Below, one piece after another: positions 1,661-61,310 of a stretch of DNA of 64,000 nt. Position numbers and translations under genes: made by a program. The notes beneath the pieces were generated by a model. That model searched no databases. It saw only the letters and a program-made list of their open reading frames with translations, and had not been told where the DNA came from. Positions within the stretch are counted from its first letter, which is position 1, and each line of letters opens with the position of its first letter. The stretch spans positions 26,637 through 90,636 of the forward strand of contig CAZNVR010000001.1 of assembly GCA_964576655.1 (NCBI GenBank), in the 5' to 3' direction. Origin of the DNA: an uncultured Legionella sp. (GTDB lineage Bacteria; Pseudomonadota; Gammaproteobacteria; Legionellales; Legionellaceae).

Positions 1661-2794
1661 TCATATTTCCACCTTATAAGCTTTTGAATGTTTAGGACAA
1701 ATGATTTGCCAAATAATACTATCGTATTCTTTCTCGCTTAACATAGCAAATAAGATTGTATTAAGTTTCTTAGGATGGGTCATGATTTTTAATGCTGCTT
1801 CTTTTCGCGGCAATTGATCAAGTTGTTCTCCCATATATATCGATAGAACTTGTTGGCGTATAGTACGGAATTTCTCTTTATAATGCTCTGAGACATCTGT
1901 GACCCATTTATAAAGCTCATCGGGTACACGATCAACAAGTCGTGTAATAAGTGATTCTTTACATTCTAGTATGTCTTCTACGTAGTACTTATCTAAGTTA
2001 AGCTTCAATCCAATGACCTTTGCATCTGTCATGCCTTTGCTTCTTAAGCTATCGATGGCTACAGCTTCCCAGATGGCCCGAGTGTTAAGTCCTGTAACAA
2101 GTTTATGTAGTCGGACGTATTCTTTAAATTTGATCTTTAGACGTAAACCAGAAGCATATTGAATAACATAGCCTTCTGCATTATCTTCTTGTTTGTTTAA
2201 TAAGAATTGTAAATCTCCCTTAGCATAGTGGCGATAAGGAGTTTCAATTGGAAGAATCTCATAGACGTCTGATCCATTGTCATTATCAATTGTTGCGATA
2301 TGAACAAGTTTCCGTTCATCTCCATAATTCACAACTATACGATTTTCTGGATAGATAATCTCGAATAAATATGTATAGGATTTTCGATTCTCTTGAAGAT
2401 AGCGGACAAAATTTGTTTTAGAACGAAGCATTTTAGTGCCTTCAAGCGCTTGATTGCTGGTAAAGCTTCCGCGCGTTGCAATATACGGTATATCGCCAAT
2501 CCAGTACATAATCCCTAAACTTCCATCAAACTTCATTGTAATTGTAAATTCTTCATCTGGTAATGGTTCTTTATGTTCTTCTAAATTGAAGAATTTTCTA
2601 AATGGTCTAGCTACAATATTATCTTCGCCATCTAAGATTAATCCACGACACATTAGTGTTTCAGGAGTCCAATATTTATTATATTGACATTTTGACGTAT
2701 AGTTGTAGATATATAGATCTTCAGTAGGATGTTTTTGAACTGAAATATATCGTTCTTCGATTAACTCTTTAAATTTAGTTGTATCAATTTTCAT
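1661..2794 (-). CDS. RNA ligase 1 (T4 RnlA/gp63-like)
   Basis: 377 aa. Motif I is KFDGSLG. MCRGLIL..ARPFRKFFNLEE, GSFTSNQA and FEIIYPENRIV are collinear with T4 Rnl1 ECRGIMF..SRPMEKFFNLNE, KEDGSL, GSIKSEQA and FEFVAPTNRIV (recalled from memory). Confidence 0.8.
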   Translation of the reverse strand: MKIDTTKFKELIEERYISVQKHPTEDLYIYNYTSKCQYNKYWTPETLMCRGLILDGEDNIVARPFRKFFNLEEHKEPLPDEEFTITMKFDGSLGIMYWIGDIPYIATRGSFTSNQALEGTKMLRSKTNFVRYLQENRKSYTYLFEIIYPENRIVVNYGDERKLVHIATIDNDNGSDVYEILPIETPYRHYAKGDLQFLLNKQEDNAEGYVIQYASGLRLKIKFKEYVRLHKLVTGLNTRAIWEAVAIDSLRSKGMTDAKVIGLKLNLDKYYVEDILECKESLITRLVDRVPDELYKWVTDVSEHYKEKFRTIRQQVLSIYMGEQLDQLPRKEAALKIMTHPKKLNTILFAMLSEKEYDSIIWQIICPKHSKAYKVEI

Positions 2795-7588: not shown

Positions 7589-7819
7589 TTAAAAATCATC
7601 TGGAAAGTTGCTCTGTTCTCTTGAAAAATCTTCGCAACCATTGTGATCCTGATAATCTTGTTCAGCGGCTCCTCGTTCTTCTTGTTCAACCTCAAAAATT
7701 AATTGTTTAATGTTGTTTCTTGCTGCTTCCCAAAAGCTTTGCTCCCTACAATATGGTCCACTAAGTTTTTTATTGATTTGTTCAAGATCTTTAAGTAGTT
7801 GTTTTGTCGTTATCTTCAT
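7589..7819 (-). CDS. small acidic protein, first gene after conserved cassette copy 1
   Basis: 76 aa with a C-terminal half rich in D/E (EQEERGAAEQDYQDHNGCEDFSREQSNFPDDF). The ATG lies 6 nt after TACTAT. Confidence 0.6.
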   Translation of the reverse strand: MKITTKQLLKDLEQINKKLSGPYCREQSFWEAARNNIKQLIFEVEQEERGAAEQDYQDHNGCEDFSREQSNFPDDF

Positions 7820-7824
7820 AAGAC

Positions 7825-7910
7825 TATAGTACTATATCGCCTTTGAGATGTATACAAAATAATGGAATTAAATTGATATTAAATAACTATATGATTTGAT
7901 TAATTATTTT
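7825..7910 (-). promoter_or_regulatory. conserved promoter/regulatory cassette, copy 1
   Basis: Minus strand reads ..ATCAAATCATATAGTT..AATTCCATTATTTTGTATACATCTCAAAGGCGATATAGTACTAT. Same architecture as copies at 16884, 17322, 21846, 27811 and 61204. Confidence 0.6.
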
Positions 7911-7979
7911 TAACAATGAGCAGTATTAGAAACGGCTAAAGTTAAGAAAAAGAGAAATAATAGAACTGATATTGAAATT

Positions 7980-10140: not shown

Positions 10141-11094
10141 TTATCTTTCTAAATATGCATTACTAACAATCTTAAGTTGGAGTCTACCGACTTCGTATTC
10201 ATATCGCTCAATAGTAGGTCTAATCACAATTCCTTCTCGTATCTGATTCTCATATAATTCTGTCTTTCCTTCGGCTAAATCTTTGATTTTGAGCTCACTA
10301 TATGGCCCACGGTATATGAGTGGACAGAACTGCATACCTTGACCCATCGACTGCATTTCATCATAACTGAGCCATCTGCCATGATCGTAGACGTCAAAGA
10401 CTCTAATATCAGGTTCGGAACGCCCATATCTAAGGTCTTGCACAGGTCCGAACACTTCTCCATAGACTGCAAGTCCTTCGTGCGCCTGAAGCCAAGTCGA
10501 TAACCATGGACAATTCTTTAAAGCATTCCACCACATATTATTATCGGCTTCTTTAACCCATCGAGTGCGTGATCCACAATGCATCTGTCCGTTAACAAAA
10601 ACGAATCGACCATTTGCTCCATGGACCTTCTCTGTTGCGACGATCTCTTCATTCTCTTGGAATAAATGTCCATATCTATGCCATGATTCAACGTCATAAA
10701 TTGGATAAACGCCTTCTGGTGCATTGGCTTCTTCAGCGAATGAACTAATGCCTCGAATAGGTGGATCATATCGTGTGATACCAATTATCGGTGCCGCATC
10801 ATCTCCTTCTTTTAATCCTTCAGGTGATGGTATCAATAATCCTTGAGAATATACACCCCTAAAACGACGAACTTTAATTCGTTTGCTATCTTTCAGGAAG
10901 TCGAATTGTGGAGTATCTGGTACAACGCTGTCTGGCTGTATATAAACCGCAAGATCTCCTTCGTGCCAATCAGCTAGGCGAACACAGATTGTAAAATTCC
11001 ATATCTTAACAATACCTAAGGTATCGGCATTTGGATGTTTTTCGATTGCTCCAAGTTGAACAACGTCAGCTCTATGGGTTGATTTTGTTTCCAT
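10141..11094 (-). CDS. RNA ligase, Rnl2/DraRnl(Rnl5)-like: N-terminal OB-like domain plus adenylyltransferase domain
   Basis: 317 aa. Motif I is EKVHGANGRF (T4 Rnl2 has EKIHGTNFS). VYGEVFGPVQD matches VFGEFAGPGIQ. The N-terminal 110 aa resemble the OB module of DRB0094-type ligases. Confidence 0.7.
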   Translation of the reverse strand: METKSTHRADVVQLGAIEKHPNADTLGIVKIWNFTICVRLADWHEGDLAVYIQPDSVVPDTPQFDFLKDSKRIKVRRFRGVYSQGLLIPSPEGLKEGDDAAPIIGITRYDPPIRGISSFAEEANAPEGVYPIYDVESWHRYGHLFQENEEIVATEKVHGANGRFVFVNGQMHCGSRTRWVKEADNNMWWNALKNCPWLSTWLQAHEGLAVYGEVFGPVQDLRYGRSEPDIRVFDVYDHGRWLSYDEMQSMGQGMQFCPLIYRGPYSELKIKDLAEGKTELYENQIREGIVIRPTIERYEYEVGRLQLKIVSNAYLER

Positions 11095-11304: not shown

Positions 11305-11305
11305 G

Positions 11306-11378
11306 AGCTAGCGGTAGGACTCGAACCTACAACCTCCGCATTACAAATGCGGAGCTCTGCCAATTGAGCTACGCTAGC
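11306..11378 (-). tRNA. tRNA-Thr(UGU): tRNA-Thr (anticodon UGU), no encoded CCA
   Basis: Hand-folded cloverleaf: GCTAGCG-TA-GCTC-AATTGGCA-GAGC-T-CCGCA-TTTGTAA-TGCGG-AGGTT-GTAGG-TTCGAGT-CCTAC-CGCTAGC-T. All four stems are perfect. Confidence 0.9.
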
Positions 11379-12381: not shown

Positions 12382-12712
12382 TATTGCTCCTTTTTATTGT
12401 TGACCATCGATCATCAAGATTTTGATGAGTCTTTGTATGCTCCAATAAAAAAGAAATGTCGCACATTGCATGCGATAAGTGGAGCAATTTACTTTCAGGA
12501 TCATGATCTTCACCATCCCAAAATGCTGTTAAGTGACGTTGAATAGCTGCATAGGTACGTGACCATTTGACACCATTTCGCCAATTATGGTCATTGTACT
12601 TCAAAGATCCAAAACCTAATACATCAGCCATACATTGTAATGGGTAGATAGGAATTAAATCCATGCGTCTTTTTTGATGATCTTTTTTAATGCCTTCTTT
12701 TTGATTCTTCAT
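12329..12712 (-). CDS. DUF5664-like protein (N-terminal domain of dATP/dGTP diphosphohydrolases)
   Basis: RMDLIPIYPLQCMADVLGFGSLKYNDHNWRNG..AAIQRHLTAFWDGEDHDPESKLLHLSHAMCDISFLLE matches my recollection of the R.DL.P..KY...NW..G..RH...W..GE..D.ESG..HL.H pattern. Confidence 0.5.
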   Translation of the reverse strand: MKNQKEGIKKDHQKRRMDLIPIYPLQCMADVLGFGSLKYNDHNWRNGVKWSRTYAAIQRHLTAFWDGEDHDPESKLLHLSHAMCDISFLLEHTKTHQNLDDRWSTIKRSNNAVSNKRTKNLHRLSRK

Positions 12713-12981
12713 AAAGGCTGAACACTTAAGTTTCGAACATTTATATCTATTACATTGAGTTCGGCTTTAAGTTTAAGAAGTTCTTTACGTAATGAAATGC
12801 GTTGCGTAAATTTTGTATGAGATTTTGAGGGTGGATTATATTGGACGCATTCCATCTTTGCAAATGGCGTATGGAAGTCACATGTAATCATATCTTTAGC
12901 TGGTTTTTCATCCCATACACTGTAAAGTTCTCGTGTACGTTGGCATTTAGGGCATTTATAAATGTGTGATAACATTGTCAC
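12709..12981 (-). CDS. zinc-ribbon protein (FmdB-like YKCPKC start)
   Basis: 90 aa with HIYKCPKC...CDFH. Confidence 0.5.
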   Translation of the reverse strand: MTMLSHIYKCPKCQRTRELYSVWDEKPAKDMITCDFHTPFAKMECVQYNPPSKSHTKFTQRISLRKELLKLKAELNVIDINVRNLSVQPL

Positions 12982-12985
12982 TCCT

Positions 12986-13282
12986 TTATTTTATAGGTTG
13001 AAAATTAAACTTATCACAACCTAATGCTGTATTATCCTTACTGCCCCAATTCGGGGGTAATTTAACGCCGCACCATTTCTCTACTTTCTTCTTATACAGC
13101 GCTTCAAGAGCTGATTGTAACTCTTTTGCTTGCTCAAATGTTCGAACCTTATAATTGATCTTAACGCTATAATAAGACATCGCAGGATCTTTGGTATCAA
13201 TTTTAGATTTTTTCTTATCCATCTTAGTTTTTAAAATCTTGTCTTTAATGTTTATCGTATCTTTAGATGATTTTTGTTTCAT
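12986..13282 (-). CDS. hypothetical lysine-rich protein
   Basis: 98 aa. The N-terminal 35 aa are very K-rich. Confidence 0.55.
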   Translation of the reverse strand: MKQKSSKDTINIKDKILKTKMDKKKSKIDTKDPAMSYYSVKINYKVRTFEQAKELQSALEALYKKKVEKWCGVKLPPNWGSKDNTALGCDKFNFQPIK

Positions 13283-13490
13283 ATCCTAATACCTCTCCAG
13301 TAAATTGATATTGTGTATTTTTTGGTAAATATTTGGTGCATTCAGTATGTTCCTCTGCAAAATTCATTAAGTCAATCTGCATTGCTTGCTGAACAGCAGT
13401 GGGATCTTTAGGATCTATACCATACCATTCATCTAACTTTTGATCATCAAGGTCATATTCTAAGTACATTGCAAGACGAATTCGAGCCAT
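13263..13490 (-). CDS. hypothetical protein
   Basis: 75 aa. First ORF downstream of island B and of a CTAGTATAAT element. Confidence 0.6.
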   Translation of the reverse strand: MARIRLAMYLEYDLDDQKLDEWYGIDPKDPTAVQQAMQIDLMNFAEEHTECTKYLPKNTQYQFTGEVLGYETKII

Positions 13491-13510
13491 AATATGTATC
13501 CTATCTTTTT

Positions 13511-13520
13511 ATTATACTAG
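13511..13520 (-). promoter_or_regulatory. -10-like element CTAGTATAAT upstream of ORF 13263-13490
   Basis: Minus strand reads GGTCCACCTAGTATAATAAAAAGATAGGATACATATT-ATG. Confidence 0.35.
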
Positions 13521-13718
13521 GTGGACCGAATCACAGGCTAGCAGATGATTCGGTCCGTTTGGCAACCTAGTTTGACTGGCGCAATCAGGTCAAAGCTTCT
13601 ATATGCTGATTCTTTGACGGTACGAATTACTGGCAGTATACTCAGTTAAGTTCCCGTATACTGCATTGCATATACCTAACCCCTCTCCCCTAACTAGATC
13701 GCTGATTGCCTGATAGCT
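13521..13718 (-). ncRNA. candidate structured RNA (GC-rich island B), class unknown
   Basis: ORF-free, about 47% G+C by hand count. It has an 11-bp hairpin (13523-13556), an 8-bp hairpin (13634-13663) and mutually exclusive pairings of TTTGAC/GTCAAAG/CTTTGAC segments. Strand is inferred from context. Confidence 0.45.
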
Positions 13719-13955
13719 TTACTTAGTTGAATTACCACTTAAAGATTTTATTAAATGAATGTGTTCCCATAACTTCTTATGATTCTTAATGGTATTATCT
13801 AAATCTTTCCCTTGTATTATACCACCCTTAACGTGTACTGGTAACATAATAGGATCTGCTGGATACGATGTTTTAACGATCTTCGGTATACTACCACAAC
13901 TTATAAGCACAAGAGTTAAAATTAAAATTATATATAGCTTAAGATATGTATTCAT
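13719..13955 (-). CDS. lipoprotein, possible o-spanin
   Basis: 78 aa, MNTYLKLYIILILTLVLISC-GS, with a lipobox (LISC) and a Pro-containing mature part. Confidence 0.45.
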   Translation of the reverse strand: MNTYLKLYIILILTLVLISCGSIPKIVKTSYPADPIMLPVHVKGGIIQGKDLDNTIKNHKKLWEHIHLIKSLSGNSTK

Positions 13956-14137
13956 TTAGTAACCTCATGTTCCTGAACGGGAGATAAAAATAAAGATTCG
14001 ATTGATTTTAATGTTTTCGCTTGGTCATCAATAATATCACACAGGTTCATAATCAAATGATAATGTGCAGAATCATCATTAATTAAATTCTGTCTTATTT
14101 TATCTGTAGTTGTCATAATAGTGTTCATTTTATACAT
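13952..14137 (-). CDS. hypothetical protein
   Basis: 61 aa. Overlap-coupled to both neighbours. Confidence 0.55.
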   Translation of the reverse strand: MYKMNTIMTTTDKIRQNLINDDSAHYHLIMNLCDIIDDQAKTLKSIESLFLSPVQEHEVTK

Positions 14138-14433
14138 TTCTTTTTAAAAGGATCATTTGATAATAAACAACTATCTCTCGTATCATCTAAAGGCCTACTT
14201 TGACGATCTTCATCAATTTTTTGACTCTCCTTATCAATTGCTTCTTGCGTCTTAAGATATTCAGCCCAACGACGTTCTAATTCTTTATTAACAGCCTTTT
14301 CCGCTGAACGTTGAGCAGAAACGTTTCCATTATGATAACCTACAAAATAGATACCAACAACGAGGCCAACAATAGCCAATGGCTTCCAATATGATTTAAT
14401 AAAGTTAAAAGCAACTAAAAGAAACACTGGCAT
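14125..14433 (-). CDS. type II membrane protein with coiled-coil, possible i-spanin
   Basis: The start is moved to ATG 14433 (SD AAAGGAGAATATA). The sequence MPVFLLVAFNFIKSYWKPLAIVGLVVGIYFVG is followed by a charged helical region. Confidence 0.4.
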   Translation of the reverse strand: MPVFLLVAFNFIKSYWKPLAIVGLVVGIYFVGYHNGNVSAQRSAEKAVNKELERRWAEYLKTQEAIDKESQKIDEDRQSRPLDDTRDSCLLSNDPFKKKCIK

Positions 14434-14446
14434 TATATTCTCCTTT

Positions 14447-14581
14447 TTACTCTTTAGATGGCTGTACTGGACACGTATGCCACTTCTTAGCGTGTGTATA
14501 ACATCGTTGTTCACTTGCCAAAATAAATGTTGAATTTAGTAATAAAATTAAACTTACAGTTATAAAGATAGTTTTGTTCAT
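14447..14581 (-). CDS. small secreted/membrane peptide (44 aa), below ORF-track cutoff
   Basis: MNKTIFITVSLILLLNSTFILASEQRCYTHAKKWHTCPVQPSKE*. The stop lies just before the SD of the next gene. Confidence 0.45.
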   Translation of the reverse strand: MNKTIFITVSLILLLNSTFILASEQRCYTHAKKWHTCPVQPSKE

Positions 14582-14587
14582 AAAATA

Positions 14588-14725
14588 TTATTTAATTAAA
14601 AATGCAATCATATTACCTAAAGCCCAAAAGAATGTTGCAACTGTATACCATCCTTTATCATTATACCAGCAAAGCCATACAGGGGCGAGTTGAATAAAGA
14701 TAAAAAATAGAGTTGACCATTTCAT
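14588..14725 (-). CDS. small membrane protein (45 aa), below ORF-track cutoff
   Basis: MKWSTLFFIFIQLAPVWLCWYNDKGWYTVATFFWALGNMIAFLIK*. Starts 3 nt after the upstream stop. Confidence 0.45.
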   Translation of the reverse strand: MKWSTLFFIFIQLAPVWLCWYNDKGWYTVATFFWALGNMIAFLIK

Positions 14726-16858: not shown

Positions 16859-16883
16859 ATTTTCTCCTTGTTTTGTTTCGTTG

Positions 16884-16944
16884 TTCACCATACATTATAA
16901 TAGTACTATAACTTTGTTGCAATGTATACAAAATAATGGCATTA
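16884..16944 (-). promoter_or_regulatory. conserved promoter/regulatory cassette, copy 2
   Basis: Minus strand reads AATGCCATTATTTTGTATACATTGCAACAAAGTTATAGTACTATTATAATGTATGGTGAAC. Confidence 0.6.
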
Positions 16945-17178
16945 ATCAATTATTTTAATGACATCTTTTAAGGAACAAATCGTCCAGGGAGTAGGTTTTG
17001 TGAATCCTATGGGCATATCCTCAAGACACACCTTAACTGTTGATTCCATTGGTCTTTTCCATGAGCATTCTTTGCATCTAGAATAGATTTCTCCCCAATG
17101 GTTAGTTCCTTCATTCGAAACATGATTGCAATGTGTGCATTTATATGGTTTTATTGAGTATTTTCCTGTTGTATTCAT
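16942..17178 (-). CDS. zinc-ribbon protein
   Basis: 78 aa with YKCTHCNH..CKECSW and SD AAAGGAGACAAAT. Confidence 0.6.
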   Translation of the reverse strand: MNTTGKYSIKPYKCTHCNHVSNEGTNHWGEIYSRCKECSWKRPMESTVKVCLEDMPIGFTKPTPWTICSLKDVIKIID

Positions 17179-17189
17179 ATTTGTCTCCT

Positions 17190-17321
17190 TTACACCATTT
17201 GATGATGCATTAAGAATTCTAAGAACGTCTTTTCATGGGCGACAAGAAGCTTAAGGGCGAGGATCGCACCAAACTGCTTCCAAACTGCCAACCAATTCCG
17301 TTTTGTCACTGTTCCGCTCAT
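17190..17321 (-). other. GC-rich island C: either a 43-codon leaderless ORF or a small RNA
   Basis: About 49% G+C by hand count. The ORF reads MSGTVTKRNWLAVWKQFGAILALKLLVAHEKTFLEFLMHHQMV*, and its ATG sits 6 nt after the cassette's TACTAT. It also contains direct repeats (GCAGTTTGG x2, TCGCCC x2) and a GGUGCGA-UCC-UCGCCC hairpin. Confidence 0.35.
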
Positions 17322-17372
17322 AGATTAATAGTAACATAACATAGCAGCGATGTATATAAAATAATGGAATTA
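17322..17372 (-). promoter_or_regulatory. conserved promoter/regulatory cassette, copy 3 (diverged)
   Basis: Minus strand reads AATTCCATTATTTTATATACATCGCTGCTATGTTATGTTACTATTAATCT-ATG. Confidence 0.5.
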
Positions 17373-17440
17373 AAATATAATGATGCAACCTATTAATATG
17401 GTTGAAGATTTTGTGAGCAATTTATGACGAAATAATGCCG

Positions 17441-21845: not shown

Positions 21846-21909
21846 AATCGCACCTATATTAGAATAGTCTCATAATATGTGATAAATGTACACAAAATAA
21901 TGGAATTAA
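21846..21909 (-). promoter_or_regulatory. conserved promoter/regulatory cassette, copy 4 (diverged)
   Basis: Minus strand reads AATTCCATTATTTTGTGTACATTTATCACATATTATGAGACTATTC. Confidence 0.5.
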
Positions 21910-21924
21910 ATACAGATACGATAA

Positions 21925-22287
21925 TTACTTAATTTTATTAACTTTTTTGGCTTTACCATTGCACGTTTCATACCAAAATTTAATAATAGGTGGTTCTTTA
22001 AATAAATATAAAGAAATACAATCAGGTTGAAAACGTCGATTTAATTTAGCTAATGTTTTTCCGGAAAATACAGCTGTATCTATAATAAGTATAGGTTTTA
22101 AAGCTTGTGGAATGCTTTTTAATGAGGAAGGTAAAAATGGGATACCTAGAAAATGACTTGCATATACTGATGCGACTGCACCGCTACGACCTGGACCCAT
22201 AACAGATTTTACATTCATTTTAAGATTTGATAATTTATTACTCAATCTCTCACGAAATTCAGGCTCTAAAACAATGCGATAAGTCAT
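21925..22287 (-). CDS. small type I phosphoribosyltransferase-like protein
   Basis: 120 aa. KPILIIDTAVFSGKTL matches the PRPP-binding loop (acidic-hydrophobic run followed by SG.T). Confidence 0.5.
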   Translation of the reverse strand: MTYRIVLEPEFRERLSNKLSNLKMNVKSVMGPGRSGAVASVYASHFLGIPFLPSSLKSIPQALKPILIIDTAVFSGKTLAKLNRRFQPDCISLYLFKEPPIIKFWYETCNGKAKKVNKIK

Positions 22288-22360: not shown

Positions 22361-23098
22361 TTACCACGTCGCCTTCGTCAAATGCCAGATACAGTTACGT
22401 GAGAATTGTGGAAATAATGGTGCAAATAACACAGCTAATGTATTTGTATCATAATATTGTTGGAGATGCGCAAAATGATCTTGCTGCGCTGTCGACATAT
22501 GAGGCAAAATATCTTTTTGACTTGCAAACGTTCCATAATGTGCTTCAATATTAAAACGTTTTGAAAGCTCTTCCTTAAGCTCATCATATCGCCATTCATA
22601 TACATGATTTTCAGCTGCTGAACCATTAAAACAGGGGGTTGATAGAAAGACTTTTGTATGTGGTTTAGTCCATTGTGCAATTGTATCAAGAAGTTTTAAC
22701 CCAGAATCACGGTCAACATGTTCAATAACTTCGAAACATGTAATAATATCATAATCATGATCCGGAACAATTTCAGGTTGCTTAATTAAATCAACTTGAT
22801 AAAATTCCGTGGGAAAATTAGTTTTAATATTCTCTTTATTATGGCTCACCGCACTTTCACGATACTCTAATCCTACATAAAGCGAAGGTTTTGCTTTATT
22901 AGAATACAATGCCATACACATTGGTGCATCTTTACCACATCCAACATCAAGAATCTTTTTTTCACGACCCCAAAATTTCGCAACATGTGTCCATCGTAAA
23001 TGATGAGCTAAAATATCACGATGCATAACTTGACGCTTACTATATTGGTCAGCAGTTAACTGCGTCGTATTATAGCCATTTTTATTAATGTTCACCAT
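22361..23098 (-). CDS. class I SAM-dependent methyltransferase
   Basis: 245 aa. Motif I is KILDVGCGKDAP, and DIITCFEVIEHV is the post-II/III region. The substrate is not inferable. Confidence 0.7.
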   Translation of the reverse strand: MVNINKNGYNTTQLTADQYSKRQVMHRDILAHHLRWTHVAKFWGREKKILDVGCGKDAPMCMALYSNKAKPSLYVGLEYRESAVSHNKENIKTNFPTEFYQVDLIKQPEIVPDHDYDIITCFEVIEHVDRDSGLKLLDTIAQWTKPHTKVFLSTPCFNGSAAENHVYEWRYDELKEELSKRFNIEAHYGTFASQKDILPHMSTAQQDHFAHLQQYYDTNTLAVLFAPLFPQFSRNCIWHLTKATW

Positions 23099-27761: not shown

Positions 27762-27810
27762 ATTATTCTCCTTTATTATTTATTTTTTCATATCATTAAC
27801 CATACATCAT

Positions 27811-27896
27811 AATAGTACTATAATATCGCAGCAATGTATACAAAAATAATGGAATTATTTTATAATTGCATAATTATATGATTTTATTAAGTTTTT
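27811..27896 (-). promoter_or_regulatory. conserved promoter/regulatory cassette, copy 5 (best copy)
   Basis: Minus strand reads ..TTAATAAAATCATATAATT..TAATTCCATTATTTTTGTATACATTGCTGCGATATTATAGTACTATTATGATGTATGGTTAATGAT. Confidence 0.6.
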
Positions 27897-28262
27897 TTAA
27901 TGAACAGTTGATGACAAATTAGTGAGACGGCCTAATATCGATGTAGCTTGAATCTGTGCTAATAATTCAAGTGATTGTGATTGAGTAAAGGATAATAAAG
28001 CATCTTCCGATAGAGACGGTATAGCGAGTCGTAACATTGTGAATGTAATATCAGATTCAGCGCTTCCAAGTTTCGATAATTGTTCAATAATTGTTAAATC
28101 ACGAAGATCATATTCATAAATAGGATATAACTCACCGTCAACATAAGCATCACAAATCTTCTTTTTACGTGGATTTATTGGCAATAATGATGGACAATCG
28201 ACAACTTGAAGTTCAATAGGTGGATCATTATTGATGGAAGTTTCTTTTTTCTTATGATCCAT
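27897..28262 (-). CDS. hypothetical protein
   Basis: 121 aa. Confidence 0.6.
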   Translation of the reverse strand: MDHKKKETSINNDPPIELQVVDCPSLLPINPRKKKICDAYVDGELYPIYEYDLRDLTIIEQLSKLGSAESDITFTMLRLAIPSLSEDALLSFTQSQSLELLAQIQATSILGRLTNLSSTVH

Positions 28263-39824: not shown

Positions 39825-39833
39825 ATTATACCA
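39825..39833 (-). promoter_or_regulatory. extended -10 TGGTATAAT upstream of ORF 39418-39801
   Basis: Minus strand reads AGTGGTATAATATAGCGAGATAAAAGGAGATTTT-ATG. Confidence 0.45.
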
Positions 39834-57616: not shown

Positions 57617-59320
57617 TTATGATTCGTTTTGACCTTCTTCATTAACATAAAAATTATCCTTAATTTTCATATTGGAGGGTTTAATAATAATGGATCCACC
57701 ACTTCGTAATAACATAGTGGCAATTGAAACAGCATTCGATAATGCCGTTTTAACAACTTTAAAAGGATCAATTACGCCAGCTTGTATCATATCTTCTTCA
57801 ATTCTATTAGCTCTTGCATTATAGCCTACATTTGGATATTCCATAAATTTATTTAATAATTCCAAAACAACAATATCTGCGCTACGTTTCCCAGAATTAT
57901 AAATAATTTGACGTATTGATGCTTCACAAATCTTGCCAAAAATTTGCATTGCAATTTGTTCTTCTCGCGATACACCATCAACTAATGCATTCTGTTGATC
58001 GCATAACATCTGAAAAGCAAAGAGTAAAGCAGAACCACCTCCTGCTACAACACCTTCCTCTAAAGCAGCACGAGTTGCATTTAAGGCATCTTCAATTCGA
58101 TCCTTCTTTTCTTTCATTTCAAGTTCAGTAACAGCACCAACTTCAATAATAGCAATGCCACCAATTAAACGTCCTAAGCGTTCTTTTAATATATCTCTAT
58201 CAAATTCTGAAGGAGCATCTTTCATCTGAACACGCAAAGCGTCAGCGCGTGACTGAATTTCAGCATCAGAACCACTACCATTATAAATAATGGTTTCACG
58301 TCGTGATCCAATAATACGTTCAGCACCACCTAAATATTCGCTATCATGATTAGTAATATCAGATAATTTACTCAATCCCGGCCTTACAACTTTAGCACCG
58401 CTTAAGATTGCAATATCGTCAATAACATTGCTTTGACTATACATTGATCCAAGTTTAGGAACTTTAATTGGCAAAAGTTTTAGACCCATCTGTTGGGCAT
58501 TAATCATAACAATATTTATGATTTGAGGAGAAAAATCATGAGCAAAAATCACTAATGGAATAGCATCTTGACCACCACAATTGATTGAATTTAAACAACG
58601 ACCAAAATCGACAACATCATCGATAACTCCATCATAAGCAATAATGGCTGGCGTTTCATAACGGACTTGCTGTGCAACTGGTGCATTAATTAAGCAGACT
58701 CCATGGGGTCCTAAGCTACCAAAACCACGCTGAATTGAGAAGCCTTCTTCTAATCTCAGCGCTGTTCGAATTCCACCTTCTTCTAAAGACACAACGCCAT
58801 CAACTCCGACAGCATCAATAGCTTTTGTTACAATTTCAGCTATTTCATCATCGCCATTACAAGATATATAAGCAACATTATGAACTTTATCTGTTGTGTT
58901 GATTTCCACTGCTAATTTTGATAGTTGTTCAATAAGCATTGTAGAAACTTTAATTAGATGATCTCCTAAACTTTGCGGATTAATTGTATTAGTTTGAAGA
59001 TAGGCTTGTGATTCCTTAATAAGTGATTCAGTAAGCAAAATCGCTGTAGTTGTTCCATCACCAGCAATAGAATTTGTTTTCATTGCTGCTTCTTTAATAG
59101 ATTGAATAATAGCATTAATAGCGGGATCTTCGACAAATACATGATTAGCAACAGTTACGCCATCTTTTGTAATTAGTGGAACTTGACCAGGTCTATCTAA
59201 TACAATTGGAAGACCATCTGGACCTAAGGTAGCTTTAACAGGTTCAGCAAGAAGCTGAATAGCTTGTAAAACTTGTTTTTGAAAATCTACCTTACTATAA
59301 ATGAGTTTTGCATCAGACAT
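57617..59320 (-). CDS. groEL: GroEL-family chaperonin
   Basis: 567 aa with LGPDGLPIVLD, AGDGTTTAILL, VVAGGG and an overall collinear Cpn60 layout. Confidence 0.9.
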   Translation of the reverse strand: MSDAKLIYSKVDFQKQVLQAIQLLAEPVKATLGPDGLPIVLDRPGQVPLITKDGVTVANHVFVEDPAINAIIQSIKEAAMKTNSIAGDGTTTAILLTESLIKESQAYLQTNTINPQSLGDHLIKVSTMLIEQLSKLAVEINTTDKVHNVAYISCNGDDEIAEIVTKAIDAVGVDGVVSLEEGGIRTALRLEEGFSIQRGFGSLGPHGVCLINAPVAQQVRYETPAIIAYDGVIDDVVDFGRCLNSINCGGQDAIPLVIFAHDFSPQIINIVMINAQQMGLKLLPIKVPKLGSMYSQSNVIDDIAILSGAKVVRPGLSKLSDITNHDSEYLGGAERIIGSRRETIIYNGSGSDAEIQSRADALRVQMKDAPSEFDRDILKERLGRLIGGIAIIEVGAVTELEMKEKKDRIEDALNATRAALEEGVVAGGGSALLFAFQMLCDQQNALVDGVSREEQIAMQIFGKICEASIRQIIYNSGKRSADIVVLELLNKFMEYPNVGYNARANRIEEDMIQAGVIDPFKVVKTALSNAVSIATMLLRSGGSIIIKPSNMKIKDNFYVNEEGQNES

Positions 59321-61203: not shown

Positions 61204-61310
61204 AAAAATAATCAATAAAATCATATAGTTGTATCATTACATTTTAATTCCATTATTCTGTATACATCGCTGCCACGCTATGGTACTATTAGAGAGTATG
61301 GTTAATGATA
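61204..61310 (+). promoter_or_regulatory. conserved promoter/regulatory cassette, copy 6 (only plus-strand copy)
   Basis: Plus strand reads AAAAATAATCAATAAAATCATATAGTT..AATTCCATTATTCTGTATACATCGCTGCCACGCTATGGTACTATTAGAGAGTATGGTTAATGAT. Confidence 0.6.

What the first reader, a model, noticed from the sequence alone, without database searches (positions are those of the whole stretch)
13521..13718. Second GC-enriched ORF-free element with mutually exclusive helices, downstream of a lipoprotein gene
Seen directly. This is roughly 200 nt with no ORF and about 47% G+C by hand count.

Strong hairpins:
- GGACCGAATCA/TGATTCGGTCC, 11 bp (13523-13556).
- CAGTATAC/GTATACTG, 8 bp with a 14-nt loop (13634-13663).

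Three segments allow alternative pairing in an attenuator-like 1:2 versus 2:3 arrangement. GTCAAAG (13589-13595) can pair with TTTGAC (13571-13576), extendable to 8 bp with one bulge. It can instead pair with CTTTGAC (13612-13618), 7 bp.

The palindromic GTATAC/GTATAT also occurs three times. AATCAG and its complement CTGATT recur five times, which gives further competing helices.

The element ends at a CTAGTATAAT -10-like box (13511-13520). It could therefore be a 3' UTR or processing element, a stand-alone sRNA, or a transcription-control region for ORF 13263-13490.
Basis: seen in the sequence. Interest (0 to 1): 0.75.

Follow-up and report, generated by a model that had tools for sequence, protein, structure and literature searches.

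The report
Orphan structured spacer at phage operon boundary
A 228-base, unusually G+C-rich, gene-free spacer in a novel A+T-rich phage folds into stable hairpins and sits just before the promoter of the next gene; it is probably the structured tail of one transcript, and with no relatives anywhere a special regulatory role cannot be shown.

Summary
Region 13491-13718 has no minus-strand ORF, and 13521-13718 is 46.5% G+C against 33% for the window. It has the lowest folding energy of 280 equal-sized windows. It also holds the second-strongest simple hairpin in 64 kb (13523-13556).

The attenuator-like interpretation does not hold:
- A different pair of isoenergetic folds exists, but 11 of 40 shuffled controls do as well.
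- The CTAGTATAAT box belongs to a strand-biased GTATAAT motif. Twelve of the 19 minus-strand copies lie within 40 nt upstream of ORF starts. ORF75 therefore has its own promoter downstream of the structure.
- The only ORF75 homologue has a 46-nt upstream gap with a promoter and no structured element.

No Rfam family, tRNA, BLAST, pattern-scan or covariance-model match was found. The phage itself has no close relatives, so conservation is untestable rather than refuted.

Best reading (confidence about 0.4): this is a transcription-unit boundary. A structured 3' tail of the lipoprotein-gene transcript ends in a U-tract-less hairpin and is followed by the next promoter. An independent novel phage non-coding RNA remains possible. 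Interest is low to moderate.

The parts
13719..13955 (-). Upstream gene: a 78-aa predicted lipoprotein (signal peptide plus lipobox LISC). Its stop codon abuts the element.
   Evidence: ORF list; sequence read directly. There are no Pfam or PHROG hits and no tblastn match in GenBank phages.
13816..13844 (-). Candidate internal promoter inside the lipoprotein ORF: TTACCA, 17 nt, then TATAAT preceded by TG (TGGTATAAT). It could start an RNA of about 285 nt covering the element.
   Evidence: Best-scoring minus-strand promoter-like site in 12500-14600 (10/12 plus TG). It is one of 8 GGTATAAT copies on the minus strand against 1 on the plus strand. About 2 of the 8 are expected by chance, so its function is an inference.
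13562..13709 (-). Core domain of about 150 nt. The predicted three-way junction is closed by an 11-bp helix (13692-13702 with 13562-13572, two G-U pairs). The competing helix is 13702-13709 with 13581-13588.
   Evidence: On the minus strand the MFE is -43.9 kcal/mol with z = -2.32. On the plus strand it is -36.8 with z = -1.71.
13633..13664 (-). Hairpin A: 9-bp stem GCAGUAUAC/GUAUACUGC with a 14-nt loop.
   Evidence: I4. Pair probabilities are 0.86-0.99. Energy is -11.1 kcal/mol, tenth strongest simple hairpin on the minus strand.
13589..13618 (-). Hairpin B: 7-bp stem GUCAAAG/CUUUGAC with a 16-nt loop.
   Evidence: I8. Pair probabilities are 0.90-0.98.
13675..13693 (-). Purine-rich, predicted mostly unpaired segment UUAGGGGAGAGGGGUUAGG.
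   Evidence: Sequence and fold. Its complement does not occur elsewhere in the window, even with 3 mismatches allowed.
13523..13556 (-). Hairpin C: 11-12-bp G+C-rich stem GGACCGAAUCA/UGAUUCGGUCC with a 10-12-nt loop holding a central GCUAGC. No U-tract follows on the minus strand. It can be extended by ACUAGGU (13565-13571) pairing with ACCUAGU (13516-13522).
   Evidence: (pair probability 1.0). At -17.4 kcal/mol it is the second-strongest simple hairpin on the minus strand of the 64-kb window. Its 3' tail is ACCUAGUAUAAUAAA.
13511..13517 (-). GTATAAT -10 box of the likely promoter of ORF75, 20 nt upstream of the ATG.
   Evidence: Motif strand bias and position relative to starts. The ORF75 homologue in L005 shows an analogous promoter-then-gene layout.
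13499..13502 (-). Shine-Dalgarno AGGA of ORF75.
   Evidence: Sequence read directly.
13263..13490 (-). Downstream gene ORF75. It is an orphan with one remote homologue, P0016.

Best explanation
The element is a transcription-unit boundary in a novel A+T-rich phage.

On the gene (minus) strand, the 228-nt spacer is the untranslated 3' tail of the transcript that carries the lipoprotein gene. It may also be made from an internal TGGTATAAT promoter at 13824-13816.

The tail folds into a junction domain of about 150 nt (13709-13562). A very stable 11-12-bp hairpin follows (13556-13523). That hairpin forms or protects the transcript's 3' end. It could act as a U-tract-less terminator, as a block to 3' exonucleases, or, when extended by the flanking ACUAGGU/ACCUAGU pairing, as an RNase III-type processing site.

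Five bases further on, the GTATAAT -10 box (13517-13511) starts a new transcript with a short leader for ORF75.

Shown here: the composition, the foldability, the rank of the hairpin, and the enrichment of the promoter motif.
Inferred: that the region is transcribed as RNA on the minus strand, that the hairpin defines a 3' end, and what the junction domain does.
For: - Non-coding and G+C-enriched: 46.5% against 33%, in the top 0.43% of windows. The other G+C peaks outside protein-coding sequence are the tRNA-Thr gene and island A.
- Lowest MFE of 280 windows; z between -2.8 and -3.7.
- The core folds 7 kcal/mol better on the gene strand, with a better z (-2.32 against -1.71). The closing helix uses G-U pairs that would be mismatches on the other strand.
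- Hairpin C is the second-strongest simple hairpin in 64 kb. The other three of the top four are also intergenic and lie directly upstream of gene starts. Two of them are canonical terminators (22325-22294 and 15760-15716). The third (26817-26785) is a GGACC...GGTCC hairpin followed 12 nt later by GGTATAAT, the same hairpin-then-promoter layout as here.
- GTATAAT is a strand-biased, start-proximal motif (19 against 7 copies; 12 of 19 within 40 nt of an ORF start, against 7.8% expected).
- The ORF75 homologue starts a unit with its own promoter and has no long leader.
Against: - Hairpin C has no U-tract, whereas this phage's clear terminators do. Intrinsic termination there is therefore doubtful.
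- No transcript data exist.
- No homologue of the element was found, so there is no covariation support for any helix.
- The z-scores are moderate and similar on both strands for the full gap.
- A tail that merely ends a transcript does not explain why about 150 nt of extra G+C-rich structure is kept.
Confidence: 0.4

Rival explanations
1. It is an independent, trans-acting phage non-coding RNA of a new class, about 190-285 nt long. It would either start at the TGGTATAAT promoter inside the lipoprotein ORF or be cut out of the polycistronic transcript, as the tRNA-Thr 2 kb downstream must be. Hairpin C would be its 3' end.
For: - A G+C island in an A+T-rich genome is the classic signature of structural RNA genes. 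The tRNA-Thr interval has a similar G+C (0.44).
- This is the premise of the GC/IGR screens of Stav et al. 2019 (PMC6429828) and Narunsky et al. 2024 (PMC11109978), both listed.
- A candidate extended -10 promoter lies at 13844-13816.
- The core shows a gene-strand folding bias.
- The gene neighbourhood is rich in RNA-handling functions: two RNA ligases, RlaP and a tRNA.
Against: - There is no Rfam match even at E <= 10, no homologue, and no paralogue in the window.
- No target complementary to the exposed G-rich segment occurs in the window.
- There is no U-rich 3' tail.
- About 2 of the 8 GGTATAAT copies are expected by chance, and this one lies inside an ORF.
Confidence: 0.2
2. It has no dedicated function. 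It would be a remnant of foreign, G+C-richer DNA, or a spacer left by gene loss or gain at a mosaic junction. Its hairpins would be partly fortuitous apart from a simple transcript-end hairpin.
For: - Both flanking genes are orphans in a mosaic accessory-gene region.
- The ORF75 homologue's context lacks the element.
- Bistability is at chance level.
- The core z of only -2.3 is not exceptional. Several coding windows reach z <= -3.
Against: - The G+C excess, the lowest MFE in the window and a 153-nt core that folds better than 197 of 200 shuffles all coincide in the one long gene-free gap of this region.
- There is no trace of a decayed ORF.
- The element keeps four CTAG sites in a genome that avoids CTAG three-fold.
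Confidence: 0.15
3. It is a DNA-level control site. The 34-bp near-palindrome 13523-13556 (11-bp arms, central GCTAGC) is centred about 35 bp upstream of the predicted start. Together with the flanking ACTAGGT/ACCTAGT inverted repeat, it would be an operator or activator site for a phage or host protein regulating the ORF75 promoter.
For: - The dyad overlaps the -35 region of a promoter that lacks a recognisable -35 hexamer (AGCCTG).
- The centre of the loop is itself palindromic (I1), which an RNA hairpin does not need.
- TGATT/AATCA recurs 5 times.
Against: - The half-site does not recur elsewhere in the window beyond chance: 11 matches with up to 2 mismatches against 8.9 expected.
- A 34-bp dyad with half-site centres 23 bp apart is atypical for dimeric regulators.
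- This reading does not explain the 150-nt G+C-rich core or its strand-biased folding.
- The one external match to the arms is a terminator-like palindrome between convergent genes in an unrelated high-G+C MAG, which is a chance match.
Confidence: 0.1
4. It is a cis-regulatory leader (attenuator or riboswitch) controlling ORF75 through mutually exclusive helices.
For: - Read-through transcripts from upstream would carry the element ahead of ORF75.
- Two isoenergetic global folds exist (-66.8 and -66.7 kcal/mol). One of them pairs CUAUC (13712-13716) with GAUAG next to the Shine-Dalgarno sequence.
Against: - The likely ORF75 promoter lies downstream of all the helices.
- There is no terminator with a U-tract to be switched.
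- Equally different alternatives occur in 11 of 40 shuffles.
- The homologous gene has a 46-nt promoter-bearing gap.
- No riboswitch family matches.
Confidence: 0.07

Closest known systems
Terminator-promoter boundaries between phage transcription units, including 3'-end protective hairpins
   Same: A strong G+C-rich intergenic hairpin sits at the end of one gene and is immediately followed by a -10 box and a short leader for the next gene. The same layout occurs at 26817-26760 in this window.
   Different: No U-tract follows hairpin C, whereas the window's clear terminators at 22325-22294 and 15760-15716 have one. About 150 nt of extra structured sequence precedes the hairpin.
RNase III processing sites of T7-type phages and lambda sib retroregulation (from general knowledge)
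   Same: When extended, the hairpin has a 7-bp lower stem, an asymmetric 8-nt internal loop and an 11-bp upper stem. It lies between genes. The lower stem needs sequence beyond the hairpin (13516-13522), so it could form only in read-through transcripts, as at sib.
   Different: No cleavage data exist, the total duplex is short (about 18 bp), and the host and its RNase III are unknown. The resemblance is structural only.
Type I 3'-UTR-derived small RNAs such as DapZ and MicL (from general knowledge)
   Same: A candidate promoter lies inside the upstream ORF, and the RNA would share its 3' hairpin with the mRNA.
   Different: There is no U-rich tail for Hfq, no identified target, no expression evidence, and the length of about 285 nt is large.
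G+C-rich intergenic regions flagged as structured-RNA candidates in A+T-rich genomes (GC/IGR approach: PMC6429828, PMC11109978; Pelagibacter screen PMC2704228, all listed)
   Same: It is a long intergenic gap with G+C far above the genome mean and above-chance folding.
   Different: Those candidates are accepted only with covariation across homologues, and none is available here.

Membership tests
Any Rfam 15 family (riboswitches, ribozymes, sRNAs, introns, tRNA-like RNAs) | Covariance-model score at or near the family's gathering threshold | tested here: not met
   At gathering thresholds the whole window yields only tRNA-Thr at 11306-11378. A permissive E <= 10 scan of 13400-13800 gives only four chance-level miRNA, snoRNA and lncRNA matches of 9-17 bits, against thresholds of 48-70.
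tRNA / tmRNA | Cloverleaf or tmRNA detected by ARAGORN or the Rfam tRNA model | tested here: not met
   The single relaxed call, an intron-containing tRNA-Gly at -ps80, is noise: the same setting 'tRNAs' in the window.
Intrinsic (Rho-independent) terminator | Stable G+C-rich hairpin | tested here: met
   Hairpin C has 11-12 bp and -17.4 kcal/mol, ranking second in the window.
Intrinsic (Rho-independent) terminator | U-rich tract immediately 3' of the hairpin | tested here: not met
   The minus-strand tail is ACCUAGUAUAAUAAA and the plus-strand tail is GUUUGGCAACC. The site is not reported by the terminator scan.
Transcription attenuator / riboswitch leader | Location in the 5' leader, downstream of the regulated gene's promoter | tested here: not met
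   The GTATAAT -10 box (13517-13511) lies downstream of all the helices.
Transcription attenuator / riboswitch leader | Energetically competitive terminator and antiterminator, or sequestering helices, beyond chance | tested here: not met
The isoenergetic alternatives that do exist are matched by 11 of 40 shuffles.
Transcription attenuator / riboswitch leader | Conserved aptamer or leader across homologous genes | tested here: not met
   The only ORF75 homologue (L005) has a 46-nt gap with a promoter and no such structure. This rests on a single comparison.
Sigma-70-type promoter for ORF75 | A -10 hexamer at the right distance from the start, belonging to a motif enriched upstream of genes | tested here: met
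   TATAAT at 13516-13511 is preceded by G and lies 20 nt before the ATG. GTATAAT shows 19 against 7 strand bias, and 12 of 19 copies are within 40 nt of an ORF start. There is no recognisable -35, and the simple scan did not call this site.
RNase III processing site (T7 R-site type) | Irregular hairpin of about 20 bp with an asymmetric internal loop, lying between cistrons | tested here: inconclusive
   The extended hairpin 13571-13516 has 7 + 11 bp with an 8-nt bulge. It forms in the alternative fold with pair probability about 0.28.
RNase III processing site (T7 R-site type) | Cleavage by RNase III | not testable with these tools
   This needs an in vitro cleavage assay or transcript-end mapping.
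Structured non-coding RNA family (generic) | Homologues with compensatory base changes | not testable with these tools
   No homologue was found in any of these:
- GenBank phages or plasmids.
- IMG/VR pattern scans.
- GTDB genomes, where the one hit is a chance match.
- 1.35 Mb of loci carrying a dGTPase-homologue gene, searched by nhmmer, blastn and a covariance model.
The only other copy, L001, is 100% identical.

The most novel reading that the evidence does not exclude
The 13709-13523 region could encode a previously undescribed class of phage structured RNA: a three-way-junction domain plus a 3' hairpin. It could be a trans-acting RNA linked to the surrounding RNA-repair and tRNA gene set. 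Alternatively it could be a sib-like retroregulator, in which read-through beyond the hairpin allows the ACUAGGU/ACCUAGU extension, refolds the domain and exposes the lipoprotein-gene transcript to RNase III.
Probability: 0.12. Interest if true: 0.6.

Novelty: new member of a known kind. Interest (0 to 1): 0.3.

Why it matters
If the boundary reading is right, the element is ordinary phage gene-expression punctuation. Its main use is then to annotate the operon structure of an uncultivated phage that has no close relatives, together with the GTATAAT promoter class found here.

If the junction domain turns out to be an independent RNA, it would add to the very short list of phage-encoded structured non-coding RNAs. 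It would also do so in a genome that carries its own tRNA and two RNA ligases.

Either way, the case shows that G+C islands in A+T-rich phage genomes flag structured RNA candidates. It also shows that single-sequence 'alternative helices' are not evidence of a switch.

Tried and rejected
- Rfam at gathering and permissive thresholds: nothing.
- tRNA or tmRNA, including relaxed and intron modes: only noise.
- BLAST of the element against GenBank phages (near and distant modes) and plasmids: nothing beyond 17-24-nt chance matches.
- Four IMG/VR pattern scans for the three hairpins and the G-rich segment: zero hits.
- GTDB genome scan for hairpin C: one hit, a palindromic terminator between convergent genes in a high-G+C Actinomycetota MAG. 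It shows no similarity beyond the arms, so I rejected it as chance.
- Anchoring on neighbouring proteins:
  - ORF75 is an orphan in the word-indexed search.
  - Full HMMER found one 39% homologue on a 1.4-kb contig that lacks the element.
  - An alignment of the two found no loci in JGI metagenomes or IMG/VR.
  - tblastn of ORF75 and of the lipoprotein against GenBank phages: nothing.
- dGTPase homologues gave 160 loci (1.35 Mb). None is syntenic, and none matches by nhmmer, blastn or a single-sequence covariance model.
- A concatenated query of nine neighbouring proteins was swamped by word candidates.
- Paralogues or an operator motif within the window: none.
- Similarity to island A: none.
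- Target complementarity for the G-rich segment: none in the window.
- cos/pac site or genome terminus: rejected. Terminase and portal genes lie 25 kb away, and the surrounding genes are accessory or nucleotide-metabolism genes, not the end of a late operon.
- HDV-like, group I-like or H-type pseudoknot readings of the crossing helices: the strand order does not fit those folds, and Rfam found nothing. This was reasoned from the strand order, not tested further.

Full report
CONTEXT

The window is an A+T-rich (33% G+C) phage-like genome, and almost all of its genes lie on the minus strand. Identified genes include:
- a DnaE-like polymerase, DnaB-like helicase, ribonucleotide reductase, SbcCD, terminase, portal and a GroEL-like chaperonin;
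- thymidylate synthase and kinase;
- two RNA ligases, RlaP and one tRNA-Thr.

The phage has no close relative. Its polymerase is at most about 30% identical to anything in GenBank phages, and megablast and blastn of the locus find nothing. The only other copy of the locus is a Logan contig with a 100% identical element.

THE OBSERVATION

The gap 13491-13718 lies between a 78-aa lipoprotein ORF (13719-13955) and a 75-aa ORF (13263-13490), both on the minus strand.
- It has no minus-strand ORF of 20 aa or more.
- G+C of 13521-13718 is 46.5%, a value reached by only 0.43% of windows. Outside protein-coding sequence the only other such island is island A (1296-1682), and the tRNA interval is comparably G+C-rich.
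- The named hairpins are real.
- The whole gap folds better than shuffles: z = -2.84 on the minus strand and -3.02 on the plus strand.
- It has the lowest raw MFE of 280 non-overlapping windows and ranks third by z.
- The 153-nt core without the big hairpin gives z = -2.32 and -43.9 kcal/mol on the gene strand, against z = -1.71 and -36.8 on the other strand.
- Its closing helix contains G-U pairs. This gives a modest hint that the structure is meant for minus-strand RNA.

THE 'MUTUALLY EXCLUSIVE HELICES'
- I found a different pair of global folds that are isoenergetic, at -66.8 and -66.7 kcal/mol. One uses an 11-bp closing helix, 13692-13702/13562-13572. The other uses an 8-bp helix, 13702-09/13581-88, plus a 7-bp extension of the 3' hairpin, 13565-71/13516-22.
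- Eleven of 40 dinucleotide shuffles also have alternatives at least as different within 1 kcal/mol. Bistability here is therefore not evidence of a switch.
- Exact AATCAG/CTGATT occurs three times rather than five, and GTATAC is not enriched in the window.

WHAT THE -10-LIKE BOX IS

GTATAAT occurs 19 times on the gene strand and 7 times on the other. GGTATAAT occurs 8 times against 1. Twelve of the 19 end within 40 nt upstream of an ORF start, although only 7.8% of positions qualify. The copy at 13517-13511 lies 20 nt before the ORF75 ATG, like those at 39831, 36633 and 16064.

ORF75 therefore very probably has its own promoter and a leader of about 14 nt. All the structure lies upstream of that promoter. 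The only homologue of ORF75 detectable in 1.8 billion representative proteins (39% identity) sits on a short ENA contig. Its upstream gap is 46 nt and holds TTGACA-17-TATAGT, with no structured element.

Together these results argue against a dedicated leader or attenuator for ORF75.

THE BIG HAIRPIN

Hairpin C (13556-13523, -17.4 kcal/mol) is the second-strongest simple hairpin on the gene strand of the window. The other three of the top four are also intergenic and lie just upstream of gene starts:
- 22325-22294 is a textbook terminator with a U-tract;
- 15760-15716 is also a textbook terminator with a U-tract;
- 26817-26785 is a GGACC...GGTCC hairpin followed 12 nt later by GGTATAAT and a gene. 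This is the same hairpin-then-promoter layout as here.

Hairpin C lacks a U-tract on either strand, so it does not meet the definition of an intrinsic terminator. It may instead be a 3'-end protective or processing structure. When extended by ACUAGGU/ACCUAGU it resembles a T7-type RNase III site, and the extension needs sequence present only in read-through RNA, as at lambda sib. This comparison rests on general knowledge and is untested.

A DNA-level operator is a rival reading, because the dyad is centred near -35 and its centre, GCTAGC, is itself palindromic. However, the half-site does not recur in the window.

A POSSIBLE OWN PROMOTER

TTACCA-17-TATAAT preceded by TG (13844-13816) lies inside the lipoprotein ORF. 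It is the best promoter-like site in the region and belongs to the GGTATAAT class. It could produce an RNA of about 285 nt ending at hairpin C. This would be the layout of a 3'-UTR-derived sRNA. About two of the eight GGTATAAT copies are expected by chance, so this remains a lead only.

SEARCH FOR RELATIVES
- Rfam at gathering and permissive thresholds, and ARAGORN: nothing.
- BLAST against phages and plasmids: nothing.
- Four IMG/VR pattern scans: zero hits.
- One GTDB scan: a chance palindrome between convergent genes in an Actinomycetota MAG.
- Protein-anchored searches in JGI metagenomes and IMG/VR: no ORF75 relatives.
- 160 loci anchored on the nearby dGTP diphosphohydrolase homologues (1.35 Mb): not syntenic, and no match by nhmmer, blastn or a covariance model built from the core.

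It is uninformative, though, because the phage's flanking genes are themselves orphans.

VERDICT

The feature is real: a G+C-rich, strongly folding, non-coding spacer. The most economical reading is a transcription-unit boundary. It consists of the structured 3' tail of the lipoprotein-gene transcript, ending in a very stable hairpin, followed at once by the promoter of ORF75 (confidence about 0.4).

The rival readings and their confidences are:
- an independent novel phage non-coding RNA, about 0.2;
- no dedicated function, about 0.15;
- a DNA operator, about 0.1;

I file it as a new, orphan member of a known kind, not as a member of any named RNA family. Interest is 0.3. It is a reasonable candidate for follow-up if relatives or transcript data appear, but nothing here would surprise a specialist.

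Noticed in passing
The part 1512-1660 folds with z = -3.17. It holds a diverged direct repeat, GCAACTAG..GACCAATT, at 1535-1515 and 1383-1364. It has no Rfam match at E <= 5 and no sequence similarity to the 13.5-kb element.
   Followed up: partly
window 7799-7911, 16873-16945, 17301-17412, 21886-21948, 27791-27898 (minus sense); 61204-61310 (plus sense): A family of intergenic repeats of about 110 nt lies upstream of genes. Each contains a conserved TTTTGTATACA block and a TTGCAA-17-TATAAT promoter with a conserved TATAGTACTAT spacer. This is probably one temporal class of phage promoters.
   Followed up: partly
whole window, e.g. 39831, 36633, 26773, 16064, 13517, 5078 (minus strand): GTATAAT/GGTATAAT is strongly strand-biased (19 against 7 copies; 8 against 1). 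Twelve of the 19 minus-strand copies lie within 40 nt upstream of ORF starts. This looks like a second promoter class, of the extended -10 type without a clear -35.
   Followed up: yes
window 22325-22294, 15760-15716, 26817-26785 (minus strand): Strong intergenic hairpins lie directly upstream of gene starts. The first two are canonical intrinsic terminators with U-tracts, and the simple scan missed them. The third shares the GGACC...GGTCC stem base with the hairpin of the finding and is followed by GGTATAAT.
   Followed up: partly
whole window; cluster at 13517, 13538, 13567, 13694: CTAG is about three-fold under-represented (66 observed against 194 expected). The densest cluster in the window, four sites, lies in the element, three of them inside the competing helices.
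   Followed up: partly
window 1661-2794, 10141-11094, 11305-11378, 22361-23098; L167 8522-9265: There is an RNA-repair-like gene set: an Rnl1-like and a second RNA ligase, an RlaP-family nucleotidyltransferase, tRNA-Thr(UGU) and a weak tRNA-methyltransferase-like protein. It suggests a counter-defence against host tRNA nucleases.
   Followed up: no
window 57617-59320 (minus strand): A phage-encoded GroEL-like chaperonin, matching PHROG 5725 at E = 5e-109.
   Followed up: no
L006 4878-4975 (Actinomycetota MAG CAWBZR010000025.1): Two tandem, near-identical 34-40-bp palindromes lie between convergent genes, directly downstream of the stop codon of a sigma-factor-like gene. One has exactly the 11-bp arms and 12-bp spacing of the phage hairpin. 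I judged this a coincidence.
   Followed up: yes
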